Assembly (NCBI GenBank): GCA_026016245.1
Contig: CP061211.1
Location: forward strand, 10,930 to 34,929
Reading direction: 5' to 3'
DNA: 24,000 nt
Source: Candidatus Pacearchaeota archaeon
GTDB lineage: Archaea; Nanobdellota; Nanobdellia; Pacearchaeales; UBA284
The position numbers and the translations under genes were made by a program. Below are positions 8,252 through 24,000 of the stretch, piece after piece (positions within the stretch are counted from its first letter, which is position 1; every line of letters starts with the position of its first letter). The notes beneath the pieces are model-generated. The model was not told the origin of the DNA. It searched no databases and worked only from the letters and a program-made list of their open reading frames with translations.

Positions 8252-9784
8252 TTATTTGAAGGTTTTTAATCCTATATTTTCAAGAGTATTTATGAATTCT
8301 TTATCTGAAAGTTTTACAGAAGTGCTCACCTTTGCTAGCAATGATAAATTTTTTCTTAAGCCAATAGATGTTCCTTCAGGTGTCTCTATTGGGCAGAATC
8401 TTCCATAGTGTGTTGGGTGTAATGTCCTTGCCTTGAAATTTTCTTGTTCACTAGGGAGCAGACTTATCACACGCTGCAATTGGGATAGTTTAGAGAGGAT
8501 ATTTGTTTTATCCATATTTTGCGTGACCCCAGAACGCTGTCCTATCCAGGAACCTGTTGCAAGAGCACTTTCAATACGGTGTGAAAATAAGGTGGATTTC
8601 GCAAGACTTCTTATGGAATAAAATTTCTTTTTCCTTGCAATCTTCTGCAAATTATGTTGGAGGTCTCTGATGAAAATTGTCAGGTTAACTCTAAATAAGT
8701 CAGTAAGAAGATTACCACTTAATCTCACACGTTTGTTAGAATAATGATCCTTATCACTCTCTAGCTTATGTTCCTTTGCTACTAGAAATTGTTTGATTAA
8801 TTTGCATAATGTGATTGCTTTTTCCTTTCTTGAGTCTGGCTTTGTCCCTATATGAGGCAATAATGCTGAGTCAAATCTCAGTTTTACTCTATCAAGCATT
8901 TCTTTTTTTGTCCCTTGTATTTTCATGATTTCTGCTATTGCCATCAAGGCGTCATTCATATCCTGCACTTTTGCATGTTCGAACAGATTAACTATGAGAC
9001 TGTCAGATTCGCTACCAATAAAGGAAGCTATGTCTGAATCTTTTGTTATTCCTAAAGCCTTGATAAGAAGAAAGGAGGGGATGCTTTTGAAGCGAGAAAA
9101 AGAGACAAGAATTAACCCATCTTGAGTTTGGGTTATAGAAACAGGAATCCTATAACTGCCACGAGAAGAATACATTCTTAAAGAAATACCTTTTATTGTT
9201 TCTTCTGTAAATGCCTGGTTTTGTGCTAAATCCTCAATCATAACAAGAACACGTTCGTTTCCATTAATGATAAAGTAACCACCAGAATCAGCAGGATCTT
9301 CATAATTCTTCACAAGGTCGGCAGTGGACATACCATGTAAATTACACCACTTACTTTTTGCCATTATGGGCATTCTTCCTATCTCTACATTACTGTATTC
9401 TTTGCCGCCAACTCCTATCTCGAGATAAACAGGAGCTGAATAAGTTATTTTTCTTAACTTGGCCTCTATAGGTAAAATGCTTCTGATAGAACCATCAGCC
9501 TCTATAATTTGTGGCCTTCCAACAGAGATTTTACCTAGCCAGAGCTCGACCTCTTCCCTTGAGATTTCTTCATTTATGTTGTTAACAATCTCCTGAAGTC
9601 TGTTCTCAATAAAATCATTAAAAGATAGAATATTAGATTCAATAAGAGAGTGCTGTTGCAAGTATCTTCTAATAAGGAAGTGTTTTTTCTTCTTATCTTC
9701 CTCGATTTGTTCTTTCCCCTTCCCTTTTTCCTTTTCCTCGACCTTTTGGGCTTCTTCCTTTTTGTTTTTTCCTTCTTCAACCAT
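8252..9784 (-). CDS. rpoB2: DNA-directed RNA polymerase subunit B'' (N-terminal half of split RpoB)
   Basis: The track ORF starts at a TTG (9799); I prefer the in-frame ATG at 9784 (MVEEGKN...). Motifs HSLIESNILSFNDFIENRLQEIV, GGYFIINGNERVLV, DHYSNKRVRLSGNLL, HPTHYGRFCPIETPEG. The stop is 4 nt before the B' start. Confidence 0.9.
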   Translation of the reverse strand: MVEEGKNKKEEAQKVEEKEKGKGKEQIEEDKKKKHFLIRRYLQQHSLIESNILSFNDFIENRLQEIVNNINEEISREEVELWLGKISVGRPQIIEADGSIRSILPIEAKLRKITYSAPVYLEIGVGGKEYSNVEIGRMPIMAKSKWCNLHGMSTADLVKNYEDPADSGGYFIINGNERVLVMIEDLAQNQAFTEETIKGISLRMYSSRGSYRIPVSITQTQDGLILVSFSRFKSIPSFLLIKALGITKDSDIASFIGSESDSLIVNLFEHAKVQDMNDALMAIAEIMKIQGTKKEMLDRVKLRFDSALLPHIGTKPDSRKEKAITLCKLIKQFLVAKEHKLESDKDHYSNKRVRLSGNLLTDLFRVNLTIFIRDLQHNLQKIARKKKFYSIRSLAKSTLFSHRIESALATGSWIGQRSGVTQNMDKTNILSKLSQLQRVISLLPSEQENFKARTLHPTHYGRFCPIETPEGTSIGLRKNLSLLAKVSTSVKLSDKEFINTLENIGLKTFK

Positions 9785-9809
9785 TTTAAGATAAAACAAT
9801 CAAAATTAA

Positions 9810-12011: not shown

Positions 12012-12758
12012 TTATTTCTTTTTTAACCAATTTATAAGAATTTTTAGTGACTTTTCATAGTTTTCATTAATTCCAAGACTATGGTCCGCTCCTTTAATTA
12101 ATTCTAACTTTGCATCAGGAAAATTTTTTGTTAGCTTCTTAGTATTTTCAGGATTAACACATTCATCATCTGTTCCTTGTATAATTAAAGTTGGAATTTT
12201 AATATTCTTTACTTTATCATACATTGTATACTGGTGACCATCTTCTACAAATTCATATCTTATCTTGTGTTTAGTGCCATCTGATTTTATATGATATGTG
12301 TAACCTTGTTCTTTCCATTTTTTTAATCCTTTTTTTCCTTTCATTAACAATACATCTTCATCATTGGAGGAGGTTGGAGATCTTAAAATTAAAAACTTTA
12401 GTTCTGGATGTTTTAAAGTTGTGGCCATAGCTACCAAACCACCTGTACTTGTGCCAAGCAAACTAATCTTTTTGTAGCCTTTATCTTTACAAAATTTTAT
12501 TGCAGATTCAACAACCCCTATATATTTTGTTATTGTTGCAAATTCAAATTTTGGTTCTGATTCTCCTAGGTTATCTAAGTCTATTCTTAAAGTGTTGATT
12601 TTATTTTTACCTAGTTCTTCTGCAATTATTTTTGTACCTTTATCTTTGTTTGAAGAAAACCCATGAATAAGTATTATAATTTTTTTTTCTGGGCTTGGTT
12701 CATCAATAACGCCACAGATCTTTTCATTAAATTTATTTTTAAAGAATATTTTTTTCAT
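12012..12758 (-). CDS. Alpha/beta-fold hydrolase (serine hydrolase, dienelactone-hydrolase/S9-like)
   Basis: I start at the ATG at 12758 (MKKIFFKNK...), because the upstream part of the track ORF reads through tRNA-Cys. Evidence: oxyanion region ILIHGF, nucleophile elbow GTSTGG (GxSxG), QGTDDECV (Asp), ADHS (His). Confidence 0.75.
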   Translation of the reverse strand: MKKIFFKNKFNEKICGVIDEPSPEKKIIILIHGFSSNKDKGTKIIAEELGKNKINTLRIDLDNLGESEPKFEFATITKYIGVVESAIKFCKDKGYKKISLLGTSTGGLVAMATTLKHPELKFLILRSPTSSNDEDVLLMKGKKGLKKWKEQGYTYHIKSDGTKHKIRYEFVEDGHQYTMYDKVKNIKIPTLIIQGTDDECVNPENTKKLTKNFPDAKLELIKGADHSLGINENYEKSLKILINWLKKK

Positions 12759-12771
12759 CTTTGTTTTGGTA

Positions 12772-12842
12772 AGCAGGGGAGGGGAATTGAACCCCCGTAC
12801 GTCGGTCTGCAACCGACTGCATAACCACTCTGCCACCCCTGC
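12772..12842 (-). tRNA. tRNA-Cys (GCA)
   Basis: Minus-strand read: GCAGGGG TG GCAG AGTGGTTA TGC A GTCGG TTGCAGA CCGAC GTAC GGGGG TTCAATT CCCCT CCCCTGC T. The cloverleaf has a 7-bp acceptor stem, anticodon loop TT-GCA-GA, and discriminator U as expected for tRNA-Cys. No directly encoded CCA. Confidence 0.85.
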
Positions 12843-12973: not shown

Positions 12974-12984
12974 CTTTTAAATTT
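12974..12984 (-). promoter_or_regulatory. Candidate TATA box for the tRNA-Arg/tRNA-Cys transcription unit
   Basis: Read on the minus strand: AAATTTAAAAG, centred about 26 nt upstream of the tRNA-Arg 5' end (12952). It overlaps the stop codon of the GGDEF gene (12983..12985). Confidence 0.5.
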
Positions 12985-13684
12985 AACTTTTATCCCCAAC
13001 AAATTGTTTTTCTATTTTTTCAAGAAAAGAAATCTTACTGATATCATCATATTCCATATAACAATTCTTACCATGTTCTTTGGCATATCTTAGAGCTATG
13101 TTGGCTTTCTCAAACAAATCTAGATTACCATTTCTCTTCCCATTTTTACTTTTTGGCATAAATTTTTCATAAGCACTTTTCATCTTTGATGTGGCTAATT
13201 CAGTTTTTTTATTATGTGAGGCGACTCCAATACTTGCTGTAAGATTAAAAGAAGCAAGAAATTTATCCTCTTGAATAAACTTCCTAATTCTTTCAGCCAT
13301 ATTTTTAGCATCTTCTGAGGGAGTTTCAGGCATTAAAACAACAAATTCTTCACCGCCAAACCTAGCAGCGACATCTGTTTCTCGGACATTACTTTTGATA
13401 ATCATTGAAACCATCTGTAAAACCTCATCGCCACGAAGATAACCATGCTTATCATTGATCCTTTTAAAATCATCTAAATCAAGAAGCAACATTGAGATAG
13501 TTCTGCCATAACGTTCAGCTATTGCCATCTCATGTTTAAAGACAGAATTAAAATACCTATAATTGTAAAGTTGTGTTTTAGTATCCACAGTAGCTAGATA
13601 ATAAAGCTTGGCTATTTTTTTAGCATCAAGACCTTTCTTAAGATCTTCTTTTCTACCTAAAATTTTCTTTAACCAGTCTGCCAT
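12983..13684 (-). CDS. Stand-alone GGDEF-domain protein (putative diguanylate cyclase)
   Basis: I start at the ATG at 13684 (MADWLKK...); the track start at 13726 is a GTG. Evidence: TQLYNYRYF, LLLDLDDFKRINDKHGYLRGDEVL (metal/GTP-binding Asp, Asn and Asp), RETD I-site-like RxxD five residues before RFGGEEFVVLMP (GGEEF), SIGVA, and ALRYAKEHGKN. Confidence 0.8.
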   Translation of the reverse strand: MADWLKKILGRKEDLKKGLDAKKIAKLYYLATVDTKTQLYNYRYFNSVFKHEMAIAERYGRTISMLLLDLDDFKRINDKHGYLRGDEVLQMVSMIIKSNVRETDVAARFGGEEFVVLMPETPSEDAKNMAERIRKFIQEDKFLASFNLTASIGVASHNKKTELATSKMKSAYEKFMPKSKNGKRNGNLDLFEKANIALRYAKEHGKNCYMEYDDISKISFLEKIEKQFVGDKS

Positions 13685-13730
13685 CTTAAAATTCAAATAT
13701 ATCAAATAATATAATCCAACAAACACAATA

Positions 13731-15558: not shown

Positions 15559-16095
15559 ATGTTTACTATGAAACAAAAATGTAGCCTTTGGCGGGTTTTT
15601 GATGTATTTGTTGAAAAACCCTTAAAGATTTATTATATCAAAGAAATAGCTAGAAAAATAAATCTTGCTCCAACATCTGTTAAAAAGCATTTGTTATATT
15701 TACTCAAACAAAATTTAATACTTAAAAAGAAAGGTGAAAGGTTTTTTGGTTTTGTAGCTAATAGAGATAATAAAGATTTTTTATTCTACAAGAAGATATT
15801 CAATATAATCAGACTTAAAGAATCTGGATTTCTTGATTTTTTAATTGATTCTCTTCATCCACAAGCAATAGTTCTATATGGTTCATACTTTAGAGGGGAA
15901 GATATAGAGACTAGCGATATAGATATGCTAATACTCTCAAAAATTAAAAAAAGATTAATATTGGAGAAATTTGAGAGAATTTTAAAGAAGGGAATTCATC
16001 TTATAACTATAGCTAGTCTGAAAAAATTAACACCTGGGTTAAAAATGGAAGTAATTAATGGATTGGTTTTACATGGATATTTAAAAAATGATTGA
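15559..16095 (+). CDS. wHTH-fused minimal nucleotidyltransferase (MNT-type, putative antitoxin-like partner)
   Basis: 178 aa. N-terminal wHTH-like segment (IKEIARKINLAPTSVKKHLLYLLKQNLI) and NTase motif VLYGSYFRGEDIETSDIDMLI (GS-x9-11-DxD). TTTATATA at 15536..15543 is a possible TATA box. An alternative ATG lies at 15568. Confidence 0.75.
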   Translation: MFTMKQKCSLWRVFDVFVEKPLKIYYIKEIARKINLAPTSVKKHLLYLLKQNLILKKKGERFFGFVANRDNKDFLFYKKIFNIIRLKESGFLDFLIDSLHPQAIVLYGSYFRGEDIETSDIDMLILSKIKKRLILEKFERILKKGIHLITIASLKKLTPGLKMEVINGLVLHGYLKND

Positions 16096-16492
16096 AGAGA
16101 TATTTAAAATTTCAAAGAGCATGGGAAGGGCAAAAGCATTAAAAGAAATGGCGCAAGAAAGATTTAGTGATGTTGAAAAAGAGAAGAAAACCTACAAAAT
16201 TATAGAGCAATATTATGAAGTAATAAAAGAACTTATAACTGCATTAATGTATCTAGATGGATTCAAAACATTGAGCCATAAGGCCCTTCTTTTTTATTTA
16301 GAAAAAAATTATAATAGATTCTTCAGTAAAGATGAGTTTATTTTAATAGATGAAACAAGAAGATTAAGAAATGATATCTTATATTATGGAAAAAAAATTG
16401 ATTTAACTTTCTTGACAAATAATGAAGAAAGAATAAAAAAGATAACAAATAAACTTATTAGGATAGTTAATAAAAAACTTCCCAACATTTAA
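16088..16492 (+). CDS. HEPN-domain protein (partner of the upstream nucleotidyltransferase)
   Basis: 134 aa, all-helical. It overlaps the NTase gene by 8 nt. The conserved C-terminal segment is ETRRLRNDILYYG, where HEPN proteins carry R-x4-6-H. Arg and Asn are present, but I see Tyr where His is expected. Confidence 0.65.
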   Translation: MIEEIFKISKSMGRAKALKEMAQERFSDVEKEKKTYKIIEQYYEVIKELITALMYLDGFKTLSHKALLFYLEKNYNRFFSKDEFILIDETRRLRNDILYYGKKIDLTFLTNNEERIKKITNKLIRIVNKKLPNI

Positions 16493-16528: not shown

Positions 16529-19500
16529 ATGGAAAAAAAGGTGAAGAAATTATTATTAGTGAGCATTTTTCTTGTTATGATTTTCTTGGTTTTGATGGTT
16601 AATGTTAGTGCTGCTGTTAGTTTATGTCGCAGCTCTGAGCTTGTTAAAGTATTTTGTAAGGGTATGGGTTGCCATCCTCTTTGGGAGTCTGTTGAATCTG
16701 AAACAGCATGTCAATATGAAATGTGGGGCGGCCCACCATATGCTAATTACTGTTATGATAATGGTTTTTATCCAATAGCAACAACCACACATAAAGGTTC
16801 GTCAAAAGCGTGTAGATTTGCAAAAACGATTACTGGTTGTGGCCTGTTGTATCGAAATCGTAAATGTTGGGGTATTTGTTCAAAAGGTGAAGAATATGCA
16901 TATAGAACAACAAAATATAATCATATGTTTATAAAAACTAAAATAAATGATACAGACATGATTCCAGATGCTCAGACTTGTTATAATTCTATTCTGTGCG
17001 ATTCTGGTTGGACTGAATATATTAAGTGGCATGATCATGTAAAAATAAGTCCAGGCGGAGATAGGTATCATTGTGTAAGAGTATGTGTTAAATGTGAGGA
17101 TGGATATGTTAATGTTGATAATAACTGGGATAATGGTTGTGAACCTGCTACTGGTTGTGATGCTGTTTGTTATGCTGCATGCCGTCAAAGACCATATCTA
17201 CCTACAGGGTGTCATACACCAATGATGGGTTGGCCACATCCTTTTTGTGAAAGCAGTTGCAAATGTCACTGTAGACATACCCCAGAAGATGGATGTATTC
17301 TGAATTATGCTGAAGACTGTGCTGCTCAAGGAGGAATTTGTCGTGAGATTGGTAATGGAGCAGAATGTCAGACTTTTGGTATAGAACATTGTAGTGGTTC
17401 TTGTCAGGTTTGTCAGAATGTGCTTGATGATATGCCTGATAATCATATTTTAATGATTGATTCTGATATTTCTGCTCCATTTGGCGGCTATGGAAAATAC
17501 TGTTTAAGTTTTGGAGGAACAAATAAAACAATTGATTGTGGAGATAATTGGATTACTGGAGGAGAAGGCCGTGTCACAGGAATTTTTGTTTTAGGCACTG
17601 GCCATACAATTCAAAACTGTAAAATAAAATCCTTTTACGGAGAAAGTGATGGCATTTGGCGAGGTGGGAGAGGAATACAGACTGTTTATGGTGTTAATAT
17701 TAATATAAAAAATATAGAAATAACTGATATAAAAGGTAAATCTAAATACATTCCTCCGGAAGAACCGCCAATACAATATTCAAGTAACAATAATTTTTAT
17801 CCAGAGCTAGAATTCCAAGGAGGAGGTTCTTGGGAACACTATCCAGGTGCGGGAATTGAAATATTAGCTAATACTGGACCTACTTTTATTGGAGCATATC
17901 TTTCTGATGTAAATATACATAATAATGAATGGTATGGTTTATATTTAAGACAAGGTGAGGTTAGTGTAACAAATTCAAGATTTTGTTTTAACAGTCAATT
18001 TGACATTAAAAAAGATGCTGGAAGTGTTAAATATCACTCTGGCCTTACTTGTGATCAAAATAAAGTTCCTGCTGGAGTGACTTGTGAAGAACCTTGCGGA
18101 CTTCCAGGAGAATGTGTTGTAAATTCAATAAGTGTCACACCAGATTGTGAAGGTGGTTCAAGTCCTGCCTGTGAGCTAGGTGAAGAGATAATGATAAGTA
18201 TAAGTTATTCTGGAACTGAGTGTCCTACTCCTTCTTATATTCAGGTCGATGCTAACTCTACTGGAGATCCTCTTGGTGAAAAATGTACTATTGCATGGAA
18301 ATCTCCTCCAGCATCAATCAAAGGAATGGAAACAACATGCACAAGCTCACCTTGCACAGAAAATTGGGTAATTAATATACCTTCAATTCCTTCTGAATGT
18401 TTAGGAAAAACAGTTTATGCTTGGGCAGTTGGCTTGTATGATGATCCTAGCTACACCCCAGGACATCATGTAACAGGCAACACAACTACAATTCCTTATC
18501 CAAGTTATGGTCATTTCACTTTTGCTGAAGAAGAAATACCACCAACAGAATGTAAAATTATAGATGCAGATGTTAAGACATATTGTGGAACTGAAGGATG
18601 TGATAATGGAGACAAAGTTGAATTGAATATAACAGTAGAAGATATGAGTAAGTGTGAGGCATTAAATGTCAATAAAATGCAAATAGATGCTTTTTCAGAT
18701 GCGCAATCACAACCAACAGGCATGGTTATTGGTGGAGGAGCTTTATGTAATGTTTATATGGTTAATTCAAGTGTAATAAAACAAGGTGATACTTATTTAG
18801 GAAATTGGACTGTTATAGTTCCTCAAGGCTGTCAAGGAGAAACTGTAGATGCGAATATAGCAAAAGTTTTCAATAATACTGGACAAATAGCACAAAAATT
18901 TGGAAATTTCGGATCTTTTGATTTTGTTGATGAACCTACAAACTGGTATGTACTTGAAGATATTAGTGTTTCACCTTCAGTTTTTGTTTTGAATATTACT
19001 GACACACAACAACTTGAAGTTATTGCATTAATGAAATGGGTAAAAAACAATAGCTTCTTTACTTTGGATGTAACCCAACAAGCAGATTATATTTCAAATG
19101 ATACTAGCGTTGCTTCTGTTTCAGCACTCGGCTTAGTTACTGGAATTGGAGATGGGACAGGAAAAATAACTGCAGAATACACACATTCTGAGGTCACAAA
19201 AGAAGACTCTAGTATTGTTAATGTCAGATATTTTGAAGATGATTATATTAGATATATTAATCTGGCTTTAAATAAATATGAAATTGAAATAAATGAAGAA
19301 ACAAGTTATGAAGTTAAGGCTTATTGGTCTAATGGTCTGACAACTGATATAACTTCTGAATCAGATGTTCAGAGTTTAAATCCAAATGTTGCTTCTGTAA
19401 ATCAAAATACTCATAGAGTTAAGGGAGAGGATGAAGGAATAGCCATCATAAATGCTAGCTATATTCATAATAATCTTCCTTATGGAGATGAAAAATTTAT

Positions 19501-20752
19501 AATTGTTACTGGAGAAGCAGTTGGAGAATATAATCTTTCAGTTGACACATGTGGAGATACATCTATTCCACCAGATGGAGATTGTGAAGATTTTATTAAT
19601 GTGAAAGGTGAAATAACTGTTAATCAAGAATCTTGGGGCATTGCACCACAAGAAAGATTCCCACTTCCTTCAGATAATTATAGAGTTTCTTTTGGTCCTC
19701 TTCAGGATTGGTATGAACCTGGGGAGATGTCAGTATTTTTGCCTCCAAATGTTTCTTTGATGGGTATTTATACTAAAGAGCCTGTGGAGTATGCTCTAAT
19801 AATTGTCCAAGCTAAAGATGAACAGACAGGACAATTTATCAATGCTTTAATTAACTTATATCTTGAAGATGATCTTGTTAATTCTACTATAAATGATGTG
19901 AGATATAATTATTCAGAGACATATCCTATTGAATTCACAGCTGAATTTGAAGACCAAAGTGGTTACATTACACCATCTAATTTAACAATAACAATTTATG
20001 GAAATGGAATTTATTTCTTTACAGTTTATTATGAAAAAGAAGCAGTTGGAGAATGTTTCTGTGAACCAAAGCATGTTCCTTGTGGTTTTTGTTATGATTT
20101 TTATTCTGAATGTGATGGCCCTCCACAAGGACCTGGACAAATAATTCCTTGTTCACCTGGTTGGATATGTAATTATGTGACAGGAAAATGTCAACCAACT
20201 TCAACCCAAGATGAGTGTCATGATAATGCTACTACTTGTAATATTATCACTGGTTGTTATTGGGATTATCCAGACATCCCTCCTCCTTATTGTAAACATT
20301 GCCAAACAGAAGGTCCTGAAACATGTTCAGGTTATGATAATCAGGGAACTTGTAATTTAGATCCTTGTGTTGTCAAGAATGTTGGTTGTCCTTCTGGTGC
20401 TAGTGACTGTAGATGTGAATGGGAAACTGATGAATGTATTCTTAAATATCAACAACAAACAAATGGAGATTTTTGTGAGATAACTTTAAGACAGGGGACT
20501 TGTGAAGAAGGTTGCCAAGGAAAAATAAATTATAGATGGCAAAATTATACTTGTGATCCTGGTTCATGTTCAGAACAAGCTTGCGTGGATTTAACCTATC
20601 CTCCCCCAGATTATACAAAATCAGAATGTGTGATTTGTCCGACACCTTTTAGAGAGCTTCCATTTTTTTCATGGTGGAATATTTTAGCTGTTGTGTCTGT
20701 ATTGATAGTGTTTTATATATTCATGCTTAGAAAAAAGAGAATTAATTATTAA
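16529..20752 (+). CDS. Giant secreted, C-terminally membrane-anchored surface protein (Cys-rich caps, beta-helix region, duplicated module, two Big_2-like domains)
   Basis: 1407 aa.
- N-terminal signal peptide: KKLLLVSIFLVMIFLVLMVNVSA-AV.
- About 30 Cys in the first roughly 300 aa.
- Parallel beta-helix-like repeats: TGIFVLGTGHTIQNCKI, NINIKNIEITDI, AYLSDVNIHNNEWYGLYLRQGEVSVTNSRF.
- Two Big_2-like domains: ISNDTSVASVSALGLVTGIGDGTGKITAEY and VQSLNPNVASVNQNTHRVKGEDEGIAIINASY.
- About 28 Cys in the last roughly 200 extracellular aa.
- C-terminal TM segment WWNILAVVSVLIVFYIFML followed by RKKRINY.
- Many N-x-S/T sequons. Confidence 0.85.
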   Translation: MEKKVKKLLLVSIFLVMIFLVLMVNVSAAVSLCRSSELVKVFCKGMGCHPLWESVESETACQYEMWGGPPYANYCYDNGFYPIATTTHKGSSKACRFAKTITGCGLLYRNRKCWGICSKGEEYAYRTTKYNHMFIKTKINDTDMIPDAQTCYNSILCDSGWTEYIKWHDHVKISPGGDRYHCVRVCVKCEDGYVNVDNNWDNGCEPATGCDAVCYAACRQRPYLPTGCHTPMMGWPHPFCESSCKCHCRHTPEDGCILNYAEDCAAQGGICREIGNGAECQTFGIEHCSGSCQVCQNVLDDMPDNHILMIDSDISAPFGGYGKYCLSFGGTNKTIDCGDNWITGGEGRVTGIFVLGTGHTIQNCKIKSFYGESDGIWRGGRGIQTVYGVNINIKNIEITDIKGKSKYIPPEEPPIQYSSNNNFYPELEFQGGGSWEHYPGAGIEILANTGPTFIGAYLSDVNIHNNEWYGLYLRQGEVSVTNSRFCFNSQFDIKKDAGSVKYHSGLTCDQNKVPAGVTCEEPCGLPGECVVNSISVTPDCEGGSSPACELGEEIMISISYSGTECPTPSYIQVDANSTGDPLGEKCTIAWKSPPASIKGMETTCTSSPCTENWVINIPSIPSECLGKTVYAWAVGLYDDPSYTPGHHVTGNTTTIPYPSYGHFTFAEEEIPPTECKIIDADVKTYCGTEGCDNGDKVELNITVEDMSKCEALNVNKMQIDAFSDAQSQPTGMVIGGGALCNVYMVNSSVIKQGDTYLGNWTVIVPQGCQGETVDANIAKVFNNTGQIAQKFGNFGSFDFVDEPTNWYVLEDISVSPSVFVLNITDTQQLEVIALMKWVKNNSFFTLDVTQQADYISNDTSVASVSALGLVTGIGDGTGKITAEYTHSEVTKEDSSIVNVRYFEDDYIRYINLALNKYEIEINEETSYEVKAYWSNGLTTDITSESDVQSLNPNVASVNQNTHRVKGEDEGIAIINASYIHNNLPYGDEKFIIVTGEAVGEYNLSVDTCGDTSIPPDGDCEDFINVKGEITVNQESWGIAPQERFPLPSDNYRVSFGPLQDWYEPGEMSVFLPPNVSLMGIYTKEPVEYALIIVQAKDEQTGQFINALINLYLEDDLVNSTINDVRYNYSETYPIEFTAEFEDQSGYITPSNLTITIYGNGIYFFTVYYEKEAVGECFCEPKHVPCGFCYDFYSECDGPPQGPGQIIPCSPGWICNYVTGKCQPTSTQDECHDNATTCNIITGCYWDYPDIPPPYCKHCQTEGPETCSGYDNQGTCNLDPCVVKNVGCPSGASDCRCEWETDECILKYQQQTNGDFCEITLRQGTCEEGCQGKINYRWQNYTCDPGSCSEQACVDLTYPPPDYTKSECVICPTPFRELPFFSWWNILAVVSVLIVFYIFMLRKKRINY
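18946..19515 (+). other. Tandem Big_2-like (bacterial Ig-like group 2) domains inside the 1407-aa protein
   Basis: Two roughly 85-aa segments, each ending in the Big_2 hallmark (S/N)xxxxVA(S/T)Vxxx...GxVxGxxxGxAxIxAxY-like pattern. Boundaries are approximate. Confidence 0.6.
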
Positions 20753-20782
20753 ATTATTTTTTCCTGGTAAAAAAGAGGTGAA

Positions 20783-23461
20783 ATGATAAAAAAAGAAGGA
20801 GTGATTTTAGTATTAGTATTTTTTATTTTATGTTGTTCTTTTAGTTCTGCTTCTGTTATTCCTGGAAATCCTTTTTTTAATTTAAGTCAAGGAAGTTTTG
20901 GTCCAGGCCAAGTTCTTGAGGGTTATTTTAACTTTTCTTTGGAAAATGAACCTGGTAATATTATGGTTAGCGGGCAAGTTGCTGCTGAGATGAAAGAGAT
21001 GAATCTTCTTGATTTTTTACAAGAAGGAGAAGTAGATTTTAATTGTGATCCTAGTGATTGTGATGTTACTTACCAGGCATCGATTCCTTCCCAAACAAAG
21101 ACAGTAGTTCTTAGTGAAGAAGAGAAGTATTTTGGTTTAGTTGCTTTTGGTACTAATCCCCAGATTTTGAACTTAAGTTTTTATCTTACTGGACAAAGCA
21201 CTGCTAATCCTATTTGTGGTGAATCTCCTTTGAAAATTGATTTGCTTGATGATGGCATTATAGATTATGAATATAAAGAGCCAAGTGGAGAATGGTGTTC
21301 TGATTTAAGACATAGTAGATGTTATGATCCTTCTATTGCTACTGGTGTTTCTGTTTTAACTTCTACTCCTCTTTGCCAGAAAATTTCTCTGAATAAGACA
21401 GGAAGGTTAGAAGTTGCTGCTGAACTTAAAGTGTATAGTGGTGAACCTTGGGATTATGATATAGAATTTACTGTTTATGATTTAGGTGGTAGTTTAATTG
21501 GAAACTGCAGTGTTGATTATTTTTATGAATTAGAATATAGTTTTGCAAAATGTTTTATAGGTCCTGAATTTCTAGGAGAGGAATCAACATTCTTTATTGA
21601 AGAAGCAGGTGATTATCTTCTTTGTATCAGGAATAAGGGAACAAGTAGTGCAGAATATTGGATTAAAAAAGAAACTCAAGAAGAGGTTTGTGGTTTTTAT
21701 GGAGAGCCGCCTTCACAGACTTATAATGAGGATTATTCTATTTATGTTCATGAAGCTAAATTTAATGCTTTTACTGAGGAAGTTGTTTTTGATGAGAGCA
21801 TGCATCTTGGTGATGTTCCTTTAATGACTTATGTCCAGAATTATATTAATTCAGAATATGGAGGTAATTGTACTGGATTTAGTGGTTGTATTATTCCTAT
21901 AAAATTTATTTCATCAGCTAGCCAGACTTTGACATTGAGTGATATCAACTTCAAATATCACCCACAAGGCACTTCTCCAACTTATAATAATTATTTTTAT
22001 GATTTGATTGTTGAGTGGCCTAAAATTGATATGGATATACAGACAGTTCCATTCTCTATTCTTAATCTTAGTGCGCCTGAACAGCCAGGTTTCCAGATGG
22101 TTTTAGCTAAGATTGGAATAGCTTCGAGAAGTCTTGGTTTTGATGTTGCAGAAGTCCCAACAATCCAAAGTGTTAGTCCTCTTATTGTAATTCCAGGAAA
22201 GCTAACAGAATTTAGGACTGTTGCTACTGCTCCAGCTGGCAAACAGATTATTCAATATAGATGGGATTTTGGTGATGGTTCAGGAGAGCAAATGACAGCT
22301 GGGCCTAATATAACACATACATACAGCCAGATAAAAACATATATTTTAACTGTCAAGGCTCAAGATACTTCTGGTTTGGTTGGTTCAAGAACTTTTACTA
22401 TTACCAGCAATATAACCCGCGAACTTTTGAATACTACAATACAGAATTTAAGAATAAGATTGGATAATTTTGCTTCTCAGTACAATAATATTGAATATTG
22501 GTACAGAGATATGATTGGAGTGAATGTTACAATAATAAGCACAACCCTTGATGTTTTAGAATCTCAATTAGCTACAGCAACCCAAACACAGCTTCTTGAT
22601 ATTAAAAATGAACTTGATGCTTTGAATGTTCCAATATCTATAAATGATACTTTGGTTTTGAGAGATTCTCCTTATATTCCAAATTTAAATGAAATAGATC
22701 CAAGTTATGTTAGTGATATGACAGGAGAGGATTATGATTCAAATCTCAAAACAGAATATCAGAATGCTGTGGCTTTATGGCAGCAGGATAATGTTAATTT
22801 GAGATTAGGAGGAGAGGCAAAAGCTTTATTTTATGAAGATAGAATAGAAGATAAGATTACAGTTGTTAATATAAAAGTTGATCCTCTTGTTGGTATTTCT
22901 AATGCTTATGTTATTTTCTCCTTGCCTTATGGTGTTAGTTACAATGATGTCAGATTACTGCATGATGCATATGAAGTAAGTGATTTAAATGATGCTATTG
23001 GCTTTGTCTATACTGGCTTAAGTGGCTTGGAAACAATTAGTATAACATTGCCAGGCAAGGTTGATTTTTCAGATATTAATTTTTATATCTCACCTTCTCT
23101 TCAGGAAGTACAAGTAGGAGTACAACCTCTGACAGAGCCACCAAAGAAACCACCCTATCTTCTAGCAATATTTTTAATAATTGTTATTGCGATAGTTGTC
23201 CTTATTATCTTATGGTTTATATGGAAAGGCTCTGGGAAAAGAGAGAAAAAGAAGCTGTTCAAGAATCCTATGGATCTTTATCATATTACTAATTTTATTT
23301 CTAACAATCAAGCTGCTGGAGTTCCAAAAAACAAGATAATAGAGAGGCTGAAAAAAGCTGGTTGGTCAAAAAAACAAATAGATCATGCTTTTAAACAAAT
23401 TGGAAAACAGAAACCAATTTTTACACCTTCAGTGAAAAGAAGACCCACAAGAAGAATTTAA
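20783..23461 (+). CDS. Secreted, C-terminally membrane-anchored surface protein with a PKD domain and a short cytoplasmic tail
   Basis: 892 aa.
- Signal peptide: GVILVLVFFILCCSFSSASV.
- PKD signature: IQYRWDFGDGSGEQMTAGPNITHTYSQIKTYILTVKAQDTSGLVGSRTFTIT, at about nt 22150..22410.
- TM segment: YLLAIFLIIVIAIVVLIILWFIW.
- An 80-aa basic tail.
- Many N-x-S/T sequons. Confidence 0.85.
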   Translation: MIKKEGVILVLVFFILCCSFSSASVIPGNPFFNLSQGSFGPGQVLEGYFNFSLENEPGNIMVSGQVAAEMKEMNLLDFLQEGEVDFNCDPSDCDVTYQASIPSQTKTVVLSEEEKYFGLVAFGTNPQILNLSFYLTGQSTANPICGESPLKIDLLDDGIIDYEYKEPSGEWCSDLRHSRCYDPSIATGVSVLTSTPLCQKISLNKTGRLEVAAELKVYSGEPWDYDIEFTVYDLGGSLIGNCSVDYFYELEYSFAKCFIGPEFLGEESTFFIEEAGDYLLCIRNKGTSSAEYWIKKETQEEVCGFYGEPPSQTYNEDYSIYVHEAKFNAFTEEVVFDESMHLGDVPLMTYVQNYINSEYGGNCTGFSGCIIPIKFISSASQTLTLSDINFKYHPQGTSPTYNNYFYDLIVEWPKIDMDIQTVPFSILNLSAPEQPGFQMVLAKIGIASRSLGFDVAEVPTIQSVSPLIVIPGKLTEFRTVATAPAGKQIIQYRWDFGDGSGEQMTAGPNITHTYSQIKTYILTVKAQDTSGLVGSRTFTITSNITRELLNTTIQNLRIRLDNFASQYNNIEYWYRDMIGVNVTIISTTLDVLESQLATATQTQLLDIKNELDALNVPISINDTLVLRDSPYIPNLNEIDPSYVSDMTGEDYDSNLKTEYQNAVALWQQDNVNLRLGGEAKALFYEDRIEDKITVVNIKVDPLVGISNAYVIFSLPYGVSYNDVRLLHDAYEVSDLNDAIGFVYTGLSGLETISITLPGKVDFSDINFYISPSLQEVQVGVQPLTEPPKKPPYLLAIFLIIVIAIVVLIILWFIWKGSGKREKKKLFKNPMDLYHITNFISNNQAAGVPKNKIIERLKKAGWSKKQIDHAFKQIGKQKPIFTPSVKRRPTRRI

Positions 23462-23466
23462 TTTTA

Positions 23467-24000
23467 TTAAGAAGGTTTAGGAGCTGGAGGCAAAGGTTTT
23501 GGTTTTCTTACTGGTTTTATTGGCATTGGTTTTGGCTTTATAGGTCTGGCTATTGGTTTTGCAGGCATTCTTACTGGCCTTGCTGGAGCTCTTCCTGGTG
23601 GCATTCTTCTTACAGGCCTAGATGGCATCATTCCAGGAAACTCCAATTTGGGTTTGGCTGGTTTTGCTTTCTTCCTTTTTTTAATGGATAGGAATATTAA
23701 AACACCTAATCCTAAGACTAAGAAAATGATGAGAGTTGTTAGCCATGGGAACACACTTGGTTTTTTACATTTCCCTAAACAACATCTGCTTGTATCAGAA
23801 GCTTCAACAATTGTTCCGTCACAAGCAAGGCTAGCATTACAGGCAGTTCCTCCTAAAGACGAACATGAACTTAAACAGCTTCCATCAACACAACATCTCG
23901 TAGCCTCACTTGTCTCATACATTGTTCCAGAACAAATCTGTCCAGCTTCACAAGAAACACCAGGACAGGTTTTTGGAATACATTTCCCTCCTTGGATACA
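23467..24000 (-). CDS. Cys-rich single-pass membrane protein with a Pro/Lys/Arg-rich cytoplasmic tail; N-terminus runs off the window
   Basis: The frame upstream of the track's ATG (23922) stays open to nt 24000 (CIQGGKCIPKTCPGVSCEAGQICSGT-MYETSEATRCCVDGSC...), so the gene is partial. The Cys-rich ectodomain is followed by the TM segment WLTTLIIFLVLGLGVLIFLSI. The 71-aa tail then contains 22 Pro by my count (ARPVRMPAKPIARPIKPKPMPIKPVRKPKPLPPAPKPS). Confidence 0.7.
   Translation of the reverse strand, partial: CIQGGKCIPKTCPGVSCEAGQICSGTMYETSEATRCCVDGSCLSSCSSLGGTACNASLACDGTIVEASDTSRCCLGKCKKPSVFPWLTTLIIFLVLGLGVLIFLSIKKRKKAKPAKPKLEFPGMMPSRPVRRMPPGRAPARPVRMPAKPIARPIKPKPMPIKPVRKPKPLPPAPKPS

What the first reader, a model, noticed from the sequence alone, without database searches (positions are those of the whole stretch)
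16529..24000. Cell-surface island: three adjacent membrane-anchored secreted proteins, two of them unusually cysteine-rich, occupying a third of the window
About 7.5 kb encodes nothing but three type-I-like surface proteins: 1407 aa, 892 aa and a partial one of at least 177 aa. The two complete ones have an N-terminal signal peptide, and all three have a large ectodomain, a single C-terminal TM helix and a basic cytoplasmic tail.

Recognisable adhesin-type parts (beta-helix, Big_2, PKD) are interleaved with long stretches I cannot assign to any family. The first two genes are co-oriented, with only 30 nt between them. The third converges on them with a 5-nt gap.

In a small-genome, DPANN-like archaeon such proteins are the prime candidates for attachment to a host or partner cell or for an unconventional envelope. 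Nothing in the cluster resembles a classical S-layer protein that I recognise.
Basis: partly seen in the sequence, partly recalled or inferred. Interest (0 to 1): 0.7.

Follow-up and report, generated by a model that had tools for sequence, protein, structure and literature searches.

The report
Pacearchaeal surface-protein cluster beside vesiculation genes
These three genes are the visible part of a lineage-specific cluster of at least five disulfide-rich surface proteins in a tiny DPANN archaeon; one protein is fast-shuffling and adhesin-like, and another almost always sits just upstream of the archaeal vesicle-forming GTPase genes, which points to a testable link between cell-surface contact and membrane remodelling.

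Summary
The region contains three real ORFs: p1 (1407 aa), p2 (892 aa) and a partial p3. p1 and p2 each have a signal peptide and one C-terminal TM helix; the p3 fragment shows the TM helix. p1 and p3 are strongly Cys-enriched (5.8% and 7.9% against 1.06% background).

The source is a Candidatus Pacearchaeota MAG. The island runs past the window: full p3 (754 aa), a pilin-like p4 (about 260 aa) and a Cys-rich polytopic p5 (about 1200 aa) follow.

- **p1** occupies a hypervariable slot. It has a constant Cys-rich stalk with an "LPFF"-TM-basic C-terminus and shuffled head modules. Two 99%-identical strains differ by whole cassettes in this slot and in p5.
- **p2** is a conserved, unnamed family: five conserved disulfide pairs inferred from ten invariant Cys, a PKD domain, a TM helix and a conserved cytoplasmic three-helix domain.
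- **p2 linkage.** In 22 of 23 informative loci p2 lies upstream of, and co-oriented with, arvA-arvB-arvC (small GTPase, OapB, OapC), the haloarchaeal vesiculation operon.
- **p3** carries an extracellular alpha/alpha-toroid (terpene-cyclase-like fold, no DxDD motif) on a stalk of Cys repeats.

My best reading is a variable contact/adhesion apparatus, possibly coupled to ArvA-driven membrane remodelling. The surface location is well supported. The host-attachment role and the ArvA coupling are inferences.

The parts
16529..20752 (+). p1: 1407-aa modular Cys-rich surface protein occupying the variable 'P1 slot' upstream of p2
   Evidence: ORF. 81 Cys and SP+TM. Mosaic relation to the slot proteins of relatives. 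Only 51 distant relatives among 1.84e9 representatives.
16616..17428 (+). p1 N-terminal Cys-rich head (aa 30-300, about 30 Cys)
   Evidence: Cys map. Relatives are limited to the L011 and L002_453 slot proteins and two representatives, P0199 and P0209. No Pfam match.
17573..17995 (+). p1 putative right-handed beta-helix (aa about 349-489)
   Evidence: PF13229 Beta_helix at E = 3e-5, 24.1 bits, just under the 25.9 cut-off, and only when scanned as a fragment. No homologues in the loci or in the exhaustive search.
18086..18943 (+). p1: two copies of a roughly 135-aa Cys-containing module (aa 520-665 and 665-805)
   Evidence: The module recurs 1-3 times in slot proteins of loci including L002, L004, L010, L011, L012, L015, L016, L017 and L023. 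Nearly all hits of the exhaustive search fall on it. No Pfam family.
18941..19528 (+). p1 tandem Ig-like (Big_2) domains (aa 805-1000)
   Evidence: PF02368 at E = 1.9e-7 on 811-882. Teneurin-like Ig repeats in PDB match 809-961. p1 aa 662-999, which covers this block, is 73% identical to L002_810.
20042..20752 (+). p1 constant C-terminal Cys-rich stalk (aa 1172-1370), then 'ELPFF' motif, TM helix and RKKRINY tail
   Evidence: Shared by slot proteins of L002, L004, L011, L012, L014, L016 and L017. Tripartite C-terminus conserved in about 20 of 30 slot proteins. Sub-threshold hits to PEF-/Loki-/Heimdall-CTERM models.
20775..20781 (+). Shine-Dalgarno-like GAGGTGA, 1 nt upstream of the p2 ATG, in the 30-nt p1-p2 gap (a T6 run lies at 20757-20762)
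   Evidence: Read from the sequence. Suggests p2 is translated from a p1-p2 co-transcript. This is inference.
20783..23461 (+). p2: 892-aa conserved PKD-containing membrane protein (the 'P2 family'), the conserved upstream neighbour of arvABC
   Evidence: Full-length homologues at 23-58% identity. Alignment A1 has 10 invariant Cys. AF2 pLDDT 83.6. Synteny.
22157..22405 (+). p2 PKD domain (aa 459-541)
   Evidence: PF18911 at E = 3.9e-12. ColG PKD domains match at rmsd 1.4-1.6 A and TMt 0.84-0.87.
23159..23227 (+). p2 transmembrane helix (aa 793-815)
   Evidence: KD hydropathy 3.61. Helix 793-815 in the AF2 model.
23252..23404 (+). p2 conserved cytoplasmic three-helix domain (aa 824-874; LFK..DLYNI.NFI...G..K.EI...L.K.GW.K.QI.YAFKK)
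   Evidence: Invariant F826, I852, L856, W861, Q865, A869, K871. Present in all 28 family members. Helices 829-844, 849-858 and 863-874. No PDB or Pfam relative.
23467..24000 (-). p3, C-terminal 177 aa: last Cys-rich repeats, TM helix and Pro/Lys/Arg-rich cytoplasmic tail. The full protein (754 aa) continues beyond the window.
   Evidence: Full gene on L001 5925-8189 (-). Family of 68 proteins. AF2 pLDDT 87 shows an alpha/alpha toroid plus an inserted beta-sandwich, Cys repeats, a TM helix and a disordered tail. Foldseek hits to class II terpene cyclases and RabGGTase-beta.

Best explanation
The region is the left part of a cell-surface gene cluster restricted to Pacearchaeota, Woesearchaeota and Nanoarchaeia. 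The gene order is: [variable P1 slot] -> P2 -> <- P3 -> P4 -> P5 -> (arvA-arvB-arvC).

**The parts**
- **p1** is a modular, disulfide-stabilised, adhesin-like protein. A constant C-terminal Cys-rich stalk and anchor carries head modules that are swapped between lineages and even between strains.
- **p2** is the conserved core: a beta-sandwich/PKD ectodomain locked by ten invariant cysteines, one TM helix, and a small conserved cytoplasmic helical domain.
- **p3** displays a non-catalytic alpha/alpha-toroid (a ligand-binding-type fold) on a stalk of Cys repeats.

**Proposed mechanism**
- The variable proteins (p1, p5) recognise and bind a partner cell or surface.
- p2 spans the membrane and, through its cytoplasmic domain, couples the contact site to the adjacent ArvA small-GTPase system. 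That system drives membrane deformation and vesicle budding in haloarchaea.

**Status of each step**
- Shown here: the gene models, the secretion and anchor features, the Cys enrichment, family conservation, slot variability, the p2-arvABC adjacency, and the folds.
- Inferred: disulfide formation, the adhesion or host-contact role, and any physical or regulatory link to ArvA.
For: **Surface location.** SP plus a single TM in p1, p2 and full-length p3, with all Cys on the predicted outside. There are 10 invariant Cys in p2 and about 50 invariant Cys in p3.

**Lineage.** NCBI names are Pacearchaeota or Nanoarchaeota. The 22 GTDB loci are all Pace-, Woese- or Nanoarchaeia apart from one bin labelled Bathyarchaeota (L021).

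**Cluster.** The same order P1slot-P2-P3-P4-P5 occurs in L001 (the window), L002, L004, L005, L010, L011, L012, L016, L017 and L021.

**Variability.**
- Window against L002: housekeeping proteins are 73-82% identical, p4 72%, p3 65%, p2 57%, p5 52%, and p1 matches only in patches.
- Slot proteins carry NosD, Beta_helix, PKD, LamG or Big_2 in different combinations.
- Strains L004 and L010 are 99.3-99.97% identical in the shared flanks. They differ by a replaced p5 body and by gene gain and loss in the slot.

**ArvABC link.**
- p2 is followed, co-oriented, by a small GTPase (PF01926/Arf), OapB (57.6 bits against a cut-off of 27) and OapC (78 against 23).
- This holds in every locus with enough downstream sequence, 22 of 23.
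- It includes members only 23-29% identical to the window p2.
- No other neighbouring family is shared by more than 9 of 28 loci.
- ArvA is required for extracellular-vesicle formation in H. volcanii and occurs in DPANN. That study analysed only the downstream genes (PMC10927574).
Against: - No experiment, expression data or proteome supports any of this.
- A host is not known for this organism.
- The p2-arvA gaps (5-208 nt) often contain TATA-like boxes (TTTATAAA), so arvA probably has its own promoter.
- In the window's lineage three genes, one on the opposite strand, lie between p2 and arvA. Co-transcription is therefore not conserved.
- arvABC of the window genome itself was not seen, because L001 ends inside p5.
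- One divergent P2-like gene (L035) is not next to arvA.
- The cytoplasmic domain has no known relatives, so its partner is a guess.
- Cassette variation could equally reflect virus pressure.
Confidence: 0.55

Rival explanations
1. Envelope or S-layer reading. p2, possibly with p3, is the structural surface-layer or stalk protein of these archaea. p1 and p5 are accessory envelope proteins. The neighbourhood of arvABC is incidental.
For: - p2 is single-copy in each locus, conserved across the lineage, about 900 aa, beta-sandwich-rich and C-terminally TM-anchored, with 12 N-glycosylation sequons.
- Foldseek lists the H. volcanii S-layer protein 7ptp and an archaeal S-layer PKD/YVTN fragment among its weak hits.
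- No other S-layer candidate is known for Pacearchaeota.
Against: - The matches are generic Ig-array hits (TM-score 0.1 or less).
- p2 has a conserved cytoplasmic domain that a lattice subunit would not need.
- There are only 30 nt and a Shine-Dalgarno-like motif upstream, with no room for a strong independent promoter.
- At 57% identity against 73-82% for housekeeping proteins, p2 evolves fast, though S-layer proteins do too.
Confidence: 0.2
2. Synteny without function. The surface cluster is real and mediates adhesion or recognition. Its adjacency to arvABC is inherited gene order, or the site is a permissive insertion hotspot, and there is no functional coupling.
For: - Promoter-like TATA boxes lie in the p2-arvA gaps.
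- Three extra genes, one on the opposite strand, are inserted between p2 and arvA in the long-type loci.
- L002 and L012 carry a further DUF7847 gene before arvA.
- L019 has an extra Cys-rich gene there.
- L035 lacks arvA after its P2-like gene.
Against: - The adjacency survives divergence to 23-29% identity.
- It also survives turnover of all other neighbours: no other family is shared by more than 9 of 28 loci, against 20 of 20 for arvA where the sequence reaches that far in that set.
- p2 is the only cluster member with a conserved cytoplasmic domain.
Confidence: 0.4
3. Virus-interface reading. The hypervariable p1 and p5 are receptors or decoys shaped by an arms race with archaeal viruses, not by host attachment.
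For: - Cassette replacement between 99%-identical strains is confined to p5 and the P1 slot.
- The modules are of the kind found in phage-binding and phage tail proteins. The BFVD hits are Ig arrays in tail and virion proteins.
Against: - The BFVD matches are generic (TM-score about 0.1).
- No defence genes or provirus lie in the window.
- No DGR-type repeats and no reverse transcriptase were found.
- Both pressures can act on the same proteins, so this reading is not exclusive.
Confidence: 0.15
4. Extracellular-enzyme reading. The proteins are surface-tethered enzymes: a beta-helix lyase or hydrolase in p1 and a terpenoid cyclase or prenyltransferase in p3.
For: - Sub-threshold Beta_helix in p1.
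- NosD/Beta_helix in 5 of 30 slot proteins.
- The p3 toroid matches class II terpene cyclases and RabGGTase-beta at probability 0.99-1.0 and TMt about 0.5.
- Weak SQHop_cyclase Pfam and TIGR01507 hits.
Against: - p3 has no DxDD motif and no CGEQ thioester. It has only two QW-like motifs.
- The Foldseek E-values are 4e-3 or weaker, and identity is about 10%.
- The Pfam hits are below the cut-off.
- No catalytic domain was found in p1, p2, p4 or p5.
Confidence: 0.07

Closest known systems
ArvA/ArvB/ArvC (OapA/B/C) vesiculation operon of Haloferax volcanii (Mills et al. 2024, PMC10927574)
   Same: In relatives of the window genome, the genes after the cluster are a roughly 213-aa single-domain GTPase (PF01926/Arf-like, with an amphipathic N-terminus), then OapB (PF09846) and OapC (PF09845). 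This is the order that paper reports for 93% and 78% of ArvA-encoding archaea, DPANN included.
   Different: No upstream partner is described in that paper. Here a large secreted TM protein (the P2 family) is the conserved upstream neighbour in 22 of 23 loci. EV formation has not been shown in any DPANN archaeon. arvABC itself lies outside the window.
Fast-evolving hypothetical surface proteins of Nanoarchaeota (Jarett et al. 2018, PMC6142677)
   Same: These are DPANN episymbionts in which predicted surface proteins carry the highest non-synonymous SNP densities. The authors interpret them as host-recognition or evasion factors.
   Different: That work reports SNP density in N-terminally anchored hypothetical proteins. 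Here the variation is module shuffling and whole-cassette replacement at one defined locus, in C-terminally anchored Cys-rich proteins, next to conserved partners.
PGF-/PEF-/Loki-/Heimdall-CTERM archaeosortase sorting signals
   Same: p1 and about 20 of 30 slot proteins end in a short conserved motif (L-[P/S/G]-F-F), a hydrophobic helix and a short basic tail at the extreme C-terminus. This is the same tripartite layout.
   Different: All NCBIfam CTERM models score below their cut-offs (best 14.1 bits against 23). The motif differs from every defined one. No archaeosortase gene was seen or could be searched for.
Class II terpene cyclase / prenyltransferase-beta alpha/alpha-toroid fold, as also found in alpha-2-macroglobulin thioester domains and transcobalamin
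   Same: The p3 ectodomain (aa about 30-375) is confidently predicted (pLDDT above 90) as an alpha/alpha toroid with two QW-like motifs. Its best matches are drimenyl-diphosphate synthase, SHC, MstE and RabGGTase-beta.
   Different: It is extracellular, carries an inserted beta-sandwich (136-241), and lacks the DxDD and CGEQ motifs. It is fused to six or seven Cys-rich repeats and a TM anchor. Sequence models are below threshold.
Bacterial and archaeal PKD/Big_2/beta-helix adhesins and S-layer proteins
   Same: Ig-like, PKD and beta-helix building blocks, a signal peptide and a C-terminal anchor.
   Different: Most of the length (the p1 head, the 135-aa modules, the Cys stalk, p2 residues 24-455 and 546-770, and the p2 tail) belongs to no Pfam or NCBIfam family. 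Extreme cysteine content is unusual for prokaryotic surface proteins.

Membership tests
ArvABC-associated locus (archaeal vesiculating GTPase system) | Small single-domain GTPase of the ArvA type (PF01926, Arf-like, N-terminal amphipathic helix) | tested here: met
   In relatives only. L002 and L009 GTPases give PF01926 at E = 3e-16 and 8e-17, with weaker Arf hits. The GTPase is 69-77% identical across the L002, L004, L005 and L007 loci. It was not seen for the window genome, whose contig copy L001 ends inside p5.
ArvABC-associated locus (archaeal vesiculating GTPase system) | arvB (OapB) directly downstream and arvC (OapC) within two genes | tested here: met
   OapB scores 57.6 and 61.3 bits (cut-off 27). 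OapC scores 78 and 72.7 bits (cut-off 23). Both were present in 19 and 16 of the 20 ArvA-bearing loci of that set.
ArvABC-associated locus (archaeal vesiculating GTPase system) | Role in extracellular-vesicle formation | not testable with these tools
   Shown only for H. volcanii (PMC10927574). No DPANN data exist.
Archaeal S-layer protein | Significant sequence or fold match to a characterised S-layer protein over most of its length | tested here: not met
   The PDB sequence search finds only PKD and Ig domains. Foldseek matches 7ptp at E = 1.1e-4 with TM-score 0.08-0.10.
Archaeal S-layer protein | Forms the 2-D lattice; very high abundance | not testable with these tools
   Needs cryo-ET or proteomics.
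Archaeosortase substrates (PGF/PEF/Loki/Heimdall-CTERM) | C-terminal tripartite signal that scores above the family model's cut-off | tested here: not met
   Best scores are PEF-CTERM 14.1 bits (cut-off 23), Heimdall-CTERM 13.6 (24) and Loki-CTERM 10.8 (19.9). The tripartite layout itself is present and conserved.
Archaeosortase substrates (PGF/PEF/Loki/Heimdall-CTERM) | A cognate archaeosortase gene in the genome | not tested
   Only about 34 kb of this genome was accessible. None was seen in the fetched loci.
Class II terpene cyclase / SHC family (p3) | Pfam/TIGRFAM match above the cut-off | tested here: not met
   PF13243 scores 22.9 against 26.1 and PF13249 scores 19.2 against 26.2. TIGR01507 scores 22.1 against 431.
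Class II terpene cyclase / SHC family (p3) | Catalytic DxDD motif | tested here: not met
   No D.DD anywhere in p3.
Class II terpene cyclase / SHC family (p3) | alpha/alpha-toroid fold | tested here: met
   AF2 pLDDT is 92-98 over 30-370. Foldseek probability is 0.99-1.0 and TMt 0.35-0.53 to drimenyl-PP synthase, SHC, MstE and RabGGTase-beta.
Right-handed beta-helix (PF13229) in p1 | Pfam match above the gathering score | tested here: inconclusive
   24.1 bits against 25.9, E = 3e-5, and only on the isolated fragment. No hit in the full-length scan. No PDB sequence hit.
Archaeal type IV pilin-like protein (p4, outside the window) | Class III signal peptide: [K/R]-G-Q/A followed by a hydrophobic stretch at the N-terminus | tested here: inconclusive
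   K-[KR]-[GA]-Q-[VTI]-T-[LI]-F-[IV]-I-[IV]-A is conserved in 9 of 9 members. This was read by eye. No FlaFind was run and no prepilin peptidase was examined.
Diversity-generating retroelement target | Template/variable repeat pair and a reverse transcriptase nearby | tested here: not met
   No direct repeats of 30 nt or more beyond AT-rich chance matches. No RT among the window genes.

The most novel reading that the evidence does not exclude
The P2 family is a previously unrecognised fourth component, a transmembrane receptor or cargo adaptor, of the ArvABC small-GTPase membrane-remodelling system in Pacearchaeota, Woesearchaeota and Nanoarchaeia. Its conserved cytoplasmic three-helix domain would recruit or regulate ArvA at sites where the variable Cys-rich proteins (p1, p5) and the toroid protein p3 engage a partner cell. 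Vesicles or membrane protrusions would then form at the contact. This would be a prokaryotic counterpart of receptor-coupled Arf/Sar1 budding, and a candidate mechanism for material exchange in DPANN symbioses. The extracellular isoprenoid-cyclase-like toroid of p3 might bind host lipids.
Probability: 0.2. Interest if true: 0.85.

Novelty: new variant of a known kind. Interest (0 to 1): 0.62.

Why it matters
How DPANN archaea recognise, hold on to and take material from other cells is largely unknown at the molecular level. No components are known for Pacearchaeota or Woesearchaeota, which have no cultured representative.

This locus supplies named, alignable candidates:
- a hypervariable adhesin slot with a constant stalk;
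- three conserved, unannotated families (P2, P3, P4/P5);
- a strong genomic association between one of them and the only archaeal GTPase shown to drive vesicle formation.

The association turns a vague idea, 'surface proteins for attachment', into specific experiments: tail-ArvA binding, localisation, and vesicle phenotype.

It also flags a possible new C-terminal sorting signal. It is also an unusual case of heavy extracellular disulfide use in a prokaryote.

Tried and rejected
- **p1 as a true orphan.** The word-indexed search found only p1 itself. Local BLAST and phmmer against relatives' loci and the exhaustive HMMER search then found patchy relatives. I rejected 'orphan' in favour of 'mosaic'.
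- **Fusexin or class II fusogen, or another known whole-protein fold, for p2.** Foldseek against PDB and BFVD gave only PKD and generic Ig-array hits with TM-score about 0.1. Rejected.
- **A2M-like thioester protein (p2 MG-like arrays plus p3 TED-like toroid).** There is no CGEQ motif and the matches are generic. Rejected.
- **DGR-driven variation.** No template/variable repeats and no RT. Rejected.
- **Known relatives of the p2 cytoplasmic domain.** A profile against PDB and a Pfam scan found nothing significant.
- **Profile of the p3 family against PDB sequences.** Nothing found.
- **Pfam on p4, p5 and other p3 members.** Nothing at E = 0.1 or better of any note.
- **Sigma-70 promoter and terminator scan.** At chance level, and not relevant to archaea.
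- **Metagenome scan.** It was swamped by generic PKD proteins and added only two informative loci plus one counterexample.
- **Retrieval of the 710-kb NCBI contig failed**. arvABC in the window's own genome is therefore inferred from synteny.

Full report
**Observation**

- p1: 16529-20752 +, 1407 aa.
- p2: 20783-23461 +, 892 aa.
- p3: 23467-24000 -, open at the window end, 177 aa.

The intergenic gaps are 30 nt and 5 nt. Kyte-Doolittle scans give a hydrophobic N-terminus and a single C-terminal TM segment in p1 and p2, and a TM segment in the p3 fragment. Signal-peptidase-like sites (VSA|A, SSA|S) can be read from the sequence. Dedicated predictors were not available.

Cysteine enrichment is real for p1 and for p3. 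p1 has 81 Cys where 14.9 are expected from the 1.06% of the other 18 ORFs (p = 2e-33). The p3 fragment has 14 where 1.9 are expected (p = 9e-9). p2 is not enriched (p = 0.10).

Pfam confirms Big_2 in p1 and PKD in p2. The beta-helix in p1 is sub-threshold: PF13229 at 24.1 bits against a cut-off of 25.9, and only on the isolated fragment.

The 'basic tail' description fits only p1, whose tail is RKKRINY. p2 has a roughly 75-aa cytoplasmic region. p3 has a roughly 70-aa Pro/Lys/Arg-rich tail.

**Source and context**

Sequences identical to p1, p2 and p3 are in NCBI as 'MAG: Candidatus Pacearchaeota archaeon', on a 710,724-bp contig. They are annotated only as 'Ig-like domain-containing', 'PKD domain-containing' and 'hypothetical'.

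The rest of the window is archaeal housekeeping: split RpoB, RpoA, TrmB, TatD and others. G+C is 26-38%.

**The island is larger than the window**

A Logan contig with identical sequence (L001) continues past position 24000. It shows:
- full-length p3 (754 aa);
- then a 264-aa protein, p4;
- then a protein of at least 1150 aa, p5. It has 5.4% Cys, a Cys-rich N-terminal ectodomain, a Gly/Ala/Trp-rich polytopic segment, and a second large domain.

p4 begins with K-[KR]-[GA]-Q-V-T-L-F-I-I-I-A, conserved in 9 of 9 members. This resembles an archaeal class III (prepilin-type) signal. It was read by eye.

**p2 is a conserved family**

Thirteen full-length homologues (23-58% identity) were found in the protein database. 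Twenty-two loci were found among GTDB species representatives. All are labelled Pacearchaeota, Woesearchaeota, Nanoarchaeota/Nanoarchaeia or simply 'archaeon', apart from one bin labelled Bathyarchaeota (L021).

The alignment has ten invariant ectodomain cysteines, the PKD signature, and a conserved cytoplasmic block: LFK..DLYNI.NFI...G..K.EI...L.K.GW.K.QI.YAFKK. Invariant residues are F826, I852, L856, W861, Q865, A869 and K871. The block is present in all 28 family members examined, and duplicated in one.

AlphaFold2 with this alignment gives mean pLDDT 83.6:
- a chain of beta-sandwich domains (24-455);
- PKD (460-542);
- a helical segment and a further beta domain (546-770);
- a TM helix (793-815);
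- three cytoplasmic helices (829-874).

Foldseek against PDB and BFVD matches only the PKD domain well (ColG PKD, rmsd 1.4 A). Everything else is a generic Ig-array hit with TM-score about 0.1. The tail profile has no PDB or Pfam relative.

**p2 is linked to arvABC**

In every locus with enough downstream sequence, p2 is followed on the same strand by three genes:
- a roughly 213-aa GTPase (PF01926, with weaker Arf hits);
- OapB (57.6 bits against a cut-off of 27);
- OapC (78 bits against a cut-off of 23).

There are two layouts:
- Short: P1slot-P2-arvABC, with gaps of 5-208 nt. Fourteen loci, plus L019, which has an extra Cys-rich gene in between, and two metagenome loci.
- Long: P1slot-P2-(P3 convergent)-P4-P5-arvABC. 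Complete in L002, L004, L005, L010 and L011. Truncated in the window/L001, L012, L014, L016, L017 and L021.

Clustering all neighbouring ORFs gives the following counts among 28 distinct loci: arvA in 20, arvB in 19, arvC in 16. The eight loci without arvA all end too early. No other family is shared by more than nine loci.

With the two metagenome loci, the count is 22 of 23. The exception is a divergent P2-like gene in L035, which is followed by an LmbE-like gene and a glycosyltransferase.

ArvA (OapA) is the small GTPase whose deletion abolishes, and whose overexpression increases, extracellular-vesicle production in Haloferax volcanii. Homologues occur in seven DPANN phyla. The authors analysed only the downstream genes (PMC10927574).

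There are caveats. TATA-like boxes in many p2-arvA gaps suggest that arvA has its own promoter. The long layout interposes three genes. arvABC of the window genome itself was not retrievable.

**p1 occupies a hypervariable slot**

The word-indexed search returned only p1 itself. Local comparison shows a mosaic:
- aa 662-999 are 73% identical to part of an 810-aa protein in L002.
- aa 995-1170 are 52% identical to part of a 1132-aa protein in L004.
- aa 1172-1407 (the Cys-rich stalk and anchor) are shared with slot proteins of seven loci.
- aa 1-369 resemble a separate 453-aa protein in L002 at 27.5%.

Two roughly 135-aa Cys-containing modules (520-665 and 665-805) recur one to three times in slot proteins of many loci.

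An exhaustive HMMER search of aa 1-800 against 1.84 billion representatives found only 51 proteins at E = 1e-3 or better. Almost all hits fall on those modules. Two proteins match the N-terminal head, and none matches 300-480. The hits that carry names are Nanoarchaeota.

Across 30 slot proteins Pfam finds PKD (8), NosD (5), Beta_helix (4), LamG (2) and Big_2 (2).

About 20 of the 30 slot proteins end in a conserved tripartite C-terminus: C..C...L-[P/S/G]-F-F, a hydrophobic helix with a conserved Tyr, and a short basic tail. The archaeal CTERM sorting-domain models score only below their cut-offs.

Window against L002:

| Protein | Identity |
|---|---|
| Housekeeping proteins | 73-82% |
| p4 | 72% |
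| p3 | 65% |
| p2 | 57% |
| p5 | 52% |
| p1 | matches only in patches |

Loci L004 and L010 come from strains 99.3-99.97% identical at the nucleotide level. They differ in three ways:
- The p5 body (about 3 kb) is replaced; only 164 bp align, at 73%.
- A 3.4-kb slot gene is present in only one of the two.
- A further slot segment is replaced.

No DGR-type repeats and no reverse transcriptase are present.

**p3**

The family has 68 members, all 'hypothetical' and all from Pace- or Nanoarchaeota. About 50 cysteines are invariant among the nine cluster copies.

AlphaFold2 with 67 sequences gives mean pLDDT 87:
- an alpha/alpha toroid (30-375, pLDDT 92-98) with an inserted beta-sandwich (136-241);
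- a run of small Cys-rich units (385-656);
- a TM helix (663-684);
- a disordered tail.

Foldseek places the toroid with class II terpene cyclases and RabGGTase-beta (probability 0.99-1.0, TMt 0.35-0.53, E = 4e-3 or weaker, about 10% identity). This agrees with the sub-threshold SQHop_cyclase and TIGR01507 hits.

There is no DxDD motif and no CGEQ motif. Two QW-like motifs remain. The fold is shared with those enzymes, but membership of the enzyme family is not met.

Shorter P3-like proteins occur in a different context in other lineages.

**Interpretation**

Well supported: these are secreted, membrane-anchored, probably disulfide-stabilised surface proteins of a Pacearchaeote. They belong to a conserved cluster that combines a fast-changing part (P1 slot, p5) with conserved parts (p2, p3, p4).

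Moderately supported, by analogy with fast-evolving surface proteins of other DPANN (PMC6142677): the variable part mediates recognition of, or adhesion to, a partner.

Inferred only: p2 couples the surface to ArvA-driven membrane remodelling through its cytoplasmic domain.

The rivals are p2 as an S-layer subunit, adjacency without function, virus-driven variation, and surface enzymes. They are weighed in the structured fields.

**Novelty and score**

Surface-protein islands and fast-evolving surface proteins are expected in DPANN genomes, so the kind is known.

What I did not find described, either in the annotations or in the papers searched:
- the defined cluster;
- the P2, P3, P4 and P5 families;
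- the constant-stalk, variable-head slot with a candidate new C-terminal signal;
- the near-universal P2-arvABC adjacency.

I rate this a new variant of a known kind, with interest 0.62. The main uncertainty is functional, not observational.

Noticed in passing
window 2912-6424 (-), 6448-8247 (-), 8252-9799 (-): RpoA is a single 1170-aa ORF with Rpb1 domains 1-5, whereas archaeal RpoA is usually split into A' and A''. RpoB is split into 515-aa and 599-aa ORFs.
   Followed up: no
window 12983-13726 (-): A GGDEF diguanylate cyclase (PF00990, E = 5e-40) in an archaeal genome. It is conserved at 73% identity in the relative L002. c-di-GMP signalling is unusual in archaea.
   Followed up: partly
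window 12772-12842 (-): tRNA-Cys(GCA) overlaps the 5' end of the alpha/beta-hydrolase ORF 12012-12836, so that ORF probably starts further downstream.
   Followed up: no
window 15559-16095 (+) and 16088-16492 (+): A nucleotidyltransferase (PF01909/Polbeta) and an overlapping 134-aa ORF with no family lie immediately upstream of p1. They look like a toxin-antitoxin-type pair. They are absent at this position in L002, which has a 70-aa gene instead.
   Followed up: no
window 20648-20749 (p1 aa 1374-1407); slot proteins in L002, L004, L005, L011, L012, L014-L018, L020, L023, L024 and others: A conserved extreme C-terminus, L-[P/S/G]-F-F followed by a TM helix and a basic tail, is present in about 20 of 30 slot proteins. 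It gives only sub-threshold hits to the PEF-, Loki- and Heimdall-CTERM sorting-domain models. It may be a new sortase-type signal.
   Followed up: partly
L004 2181-3312, 6477-9834, 16236-19203 versus L010: Two strains 99.3-99.97% identical in the shared flanks differ by replacement of the p5 body and by gene gain, loss and replacement in the P1 slot.
   Followed up: yes
L007, L019, L024, L026, L028, L031 (6-9 kb upstream of P2): Type IV pilus/archaellum-type ATPase (T2SSE) and platform (T2SSF) genes recur upstream of the short-type P2-arvABC loci. The long-type cluster instead contains the pilin-like p4.
   Followed up: no
L019 9917-12628; L007 10001-13102: One P2 homologue carries two tandem copies of the cytoplasmic domain. 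Another has an extra C-terminal polytopic extension after it.
   Followed up: no
L035 3-1793: A divergent P2-like protein retains the cytoplasmic domain but is followed by an LmbE-like deacetylase and a glycosyltransferase rather than arvA. It is the only counterexample to the linkage.
   Followed up: partly
p1: The word-indexed protein search returned only p1 itself. It missed an 810-aa relative with 73% identity over 342 aa that the exhaustive search did find (P0190). 'No homologues' from the indexed search alone would have been misleading.
   Followed up: yes
L113 10001-11851 and a JGI contig: Shorter P3-like proteins (about 600-670 aa) sit in a different conserved context (PCNA, a 540-558-aa protein, the P3-like gene, a 404-441-aa protein, MJ0538). 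The toroid-plus-Cys-repeat family is therefore wider than this cluster.
   Followed up: partly
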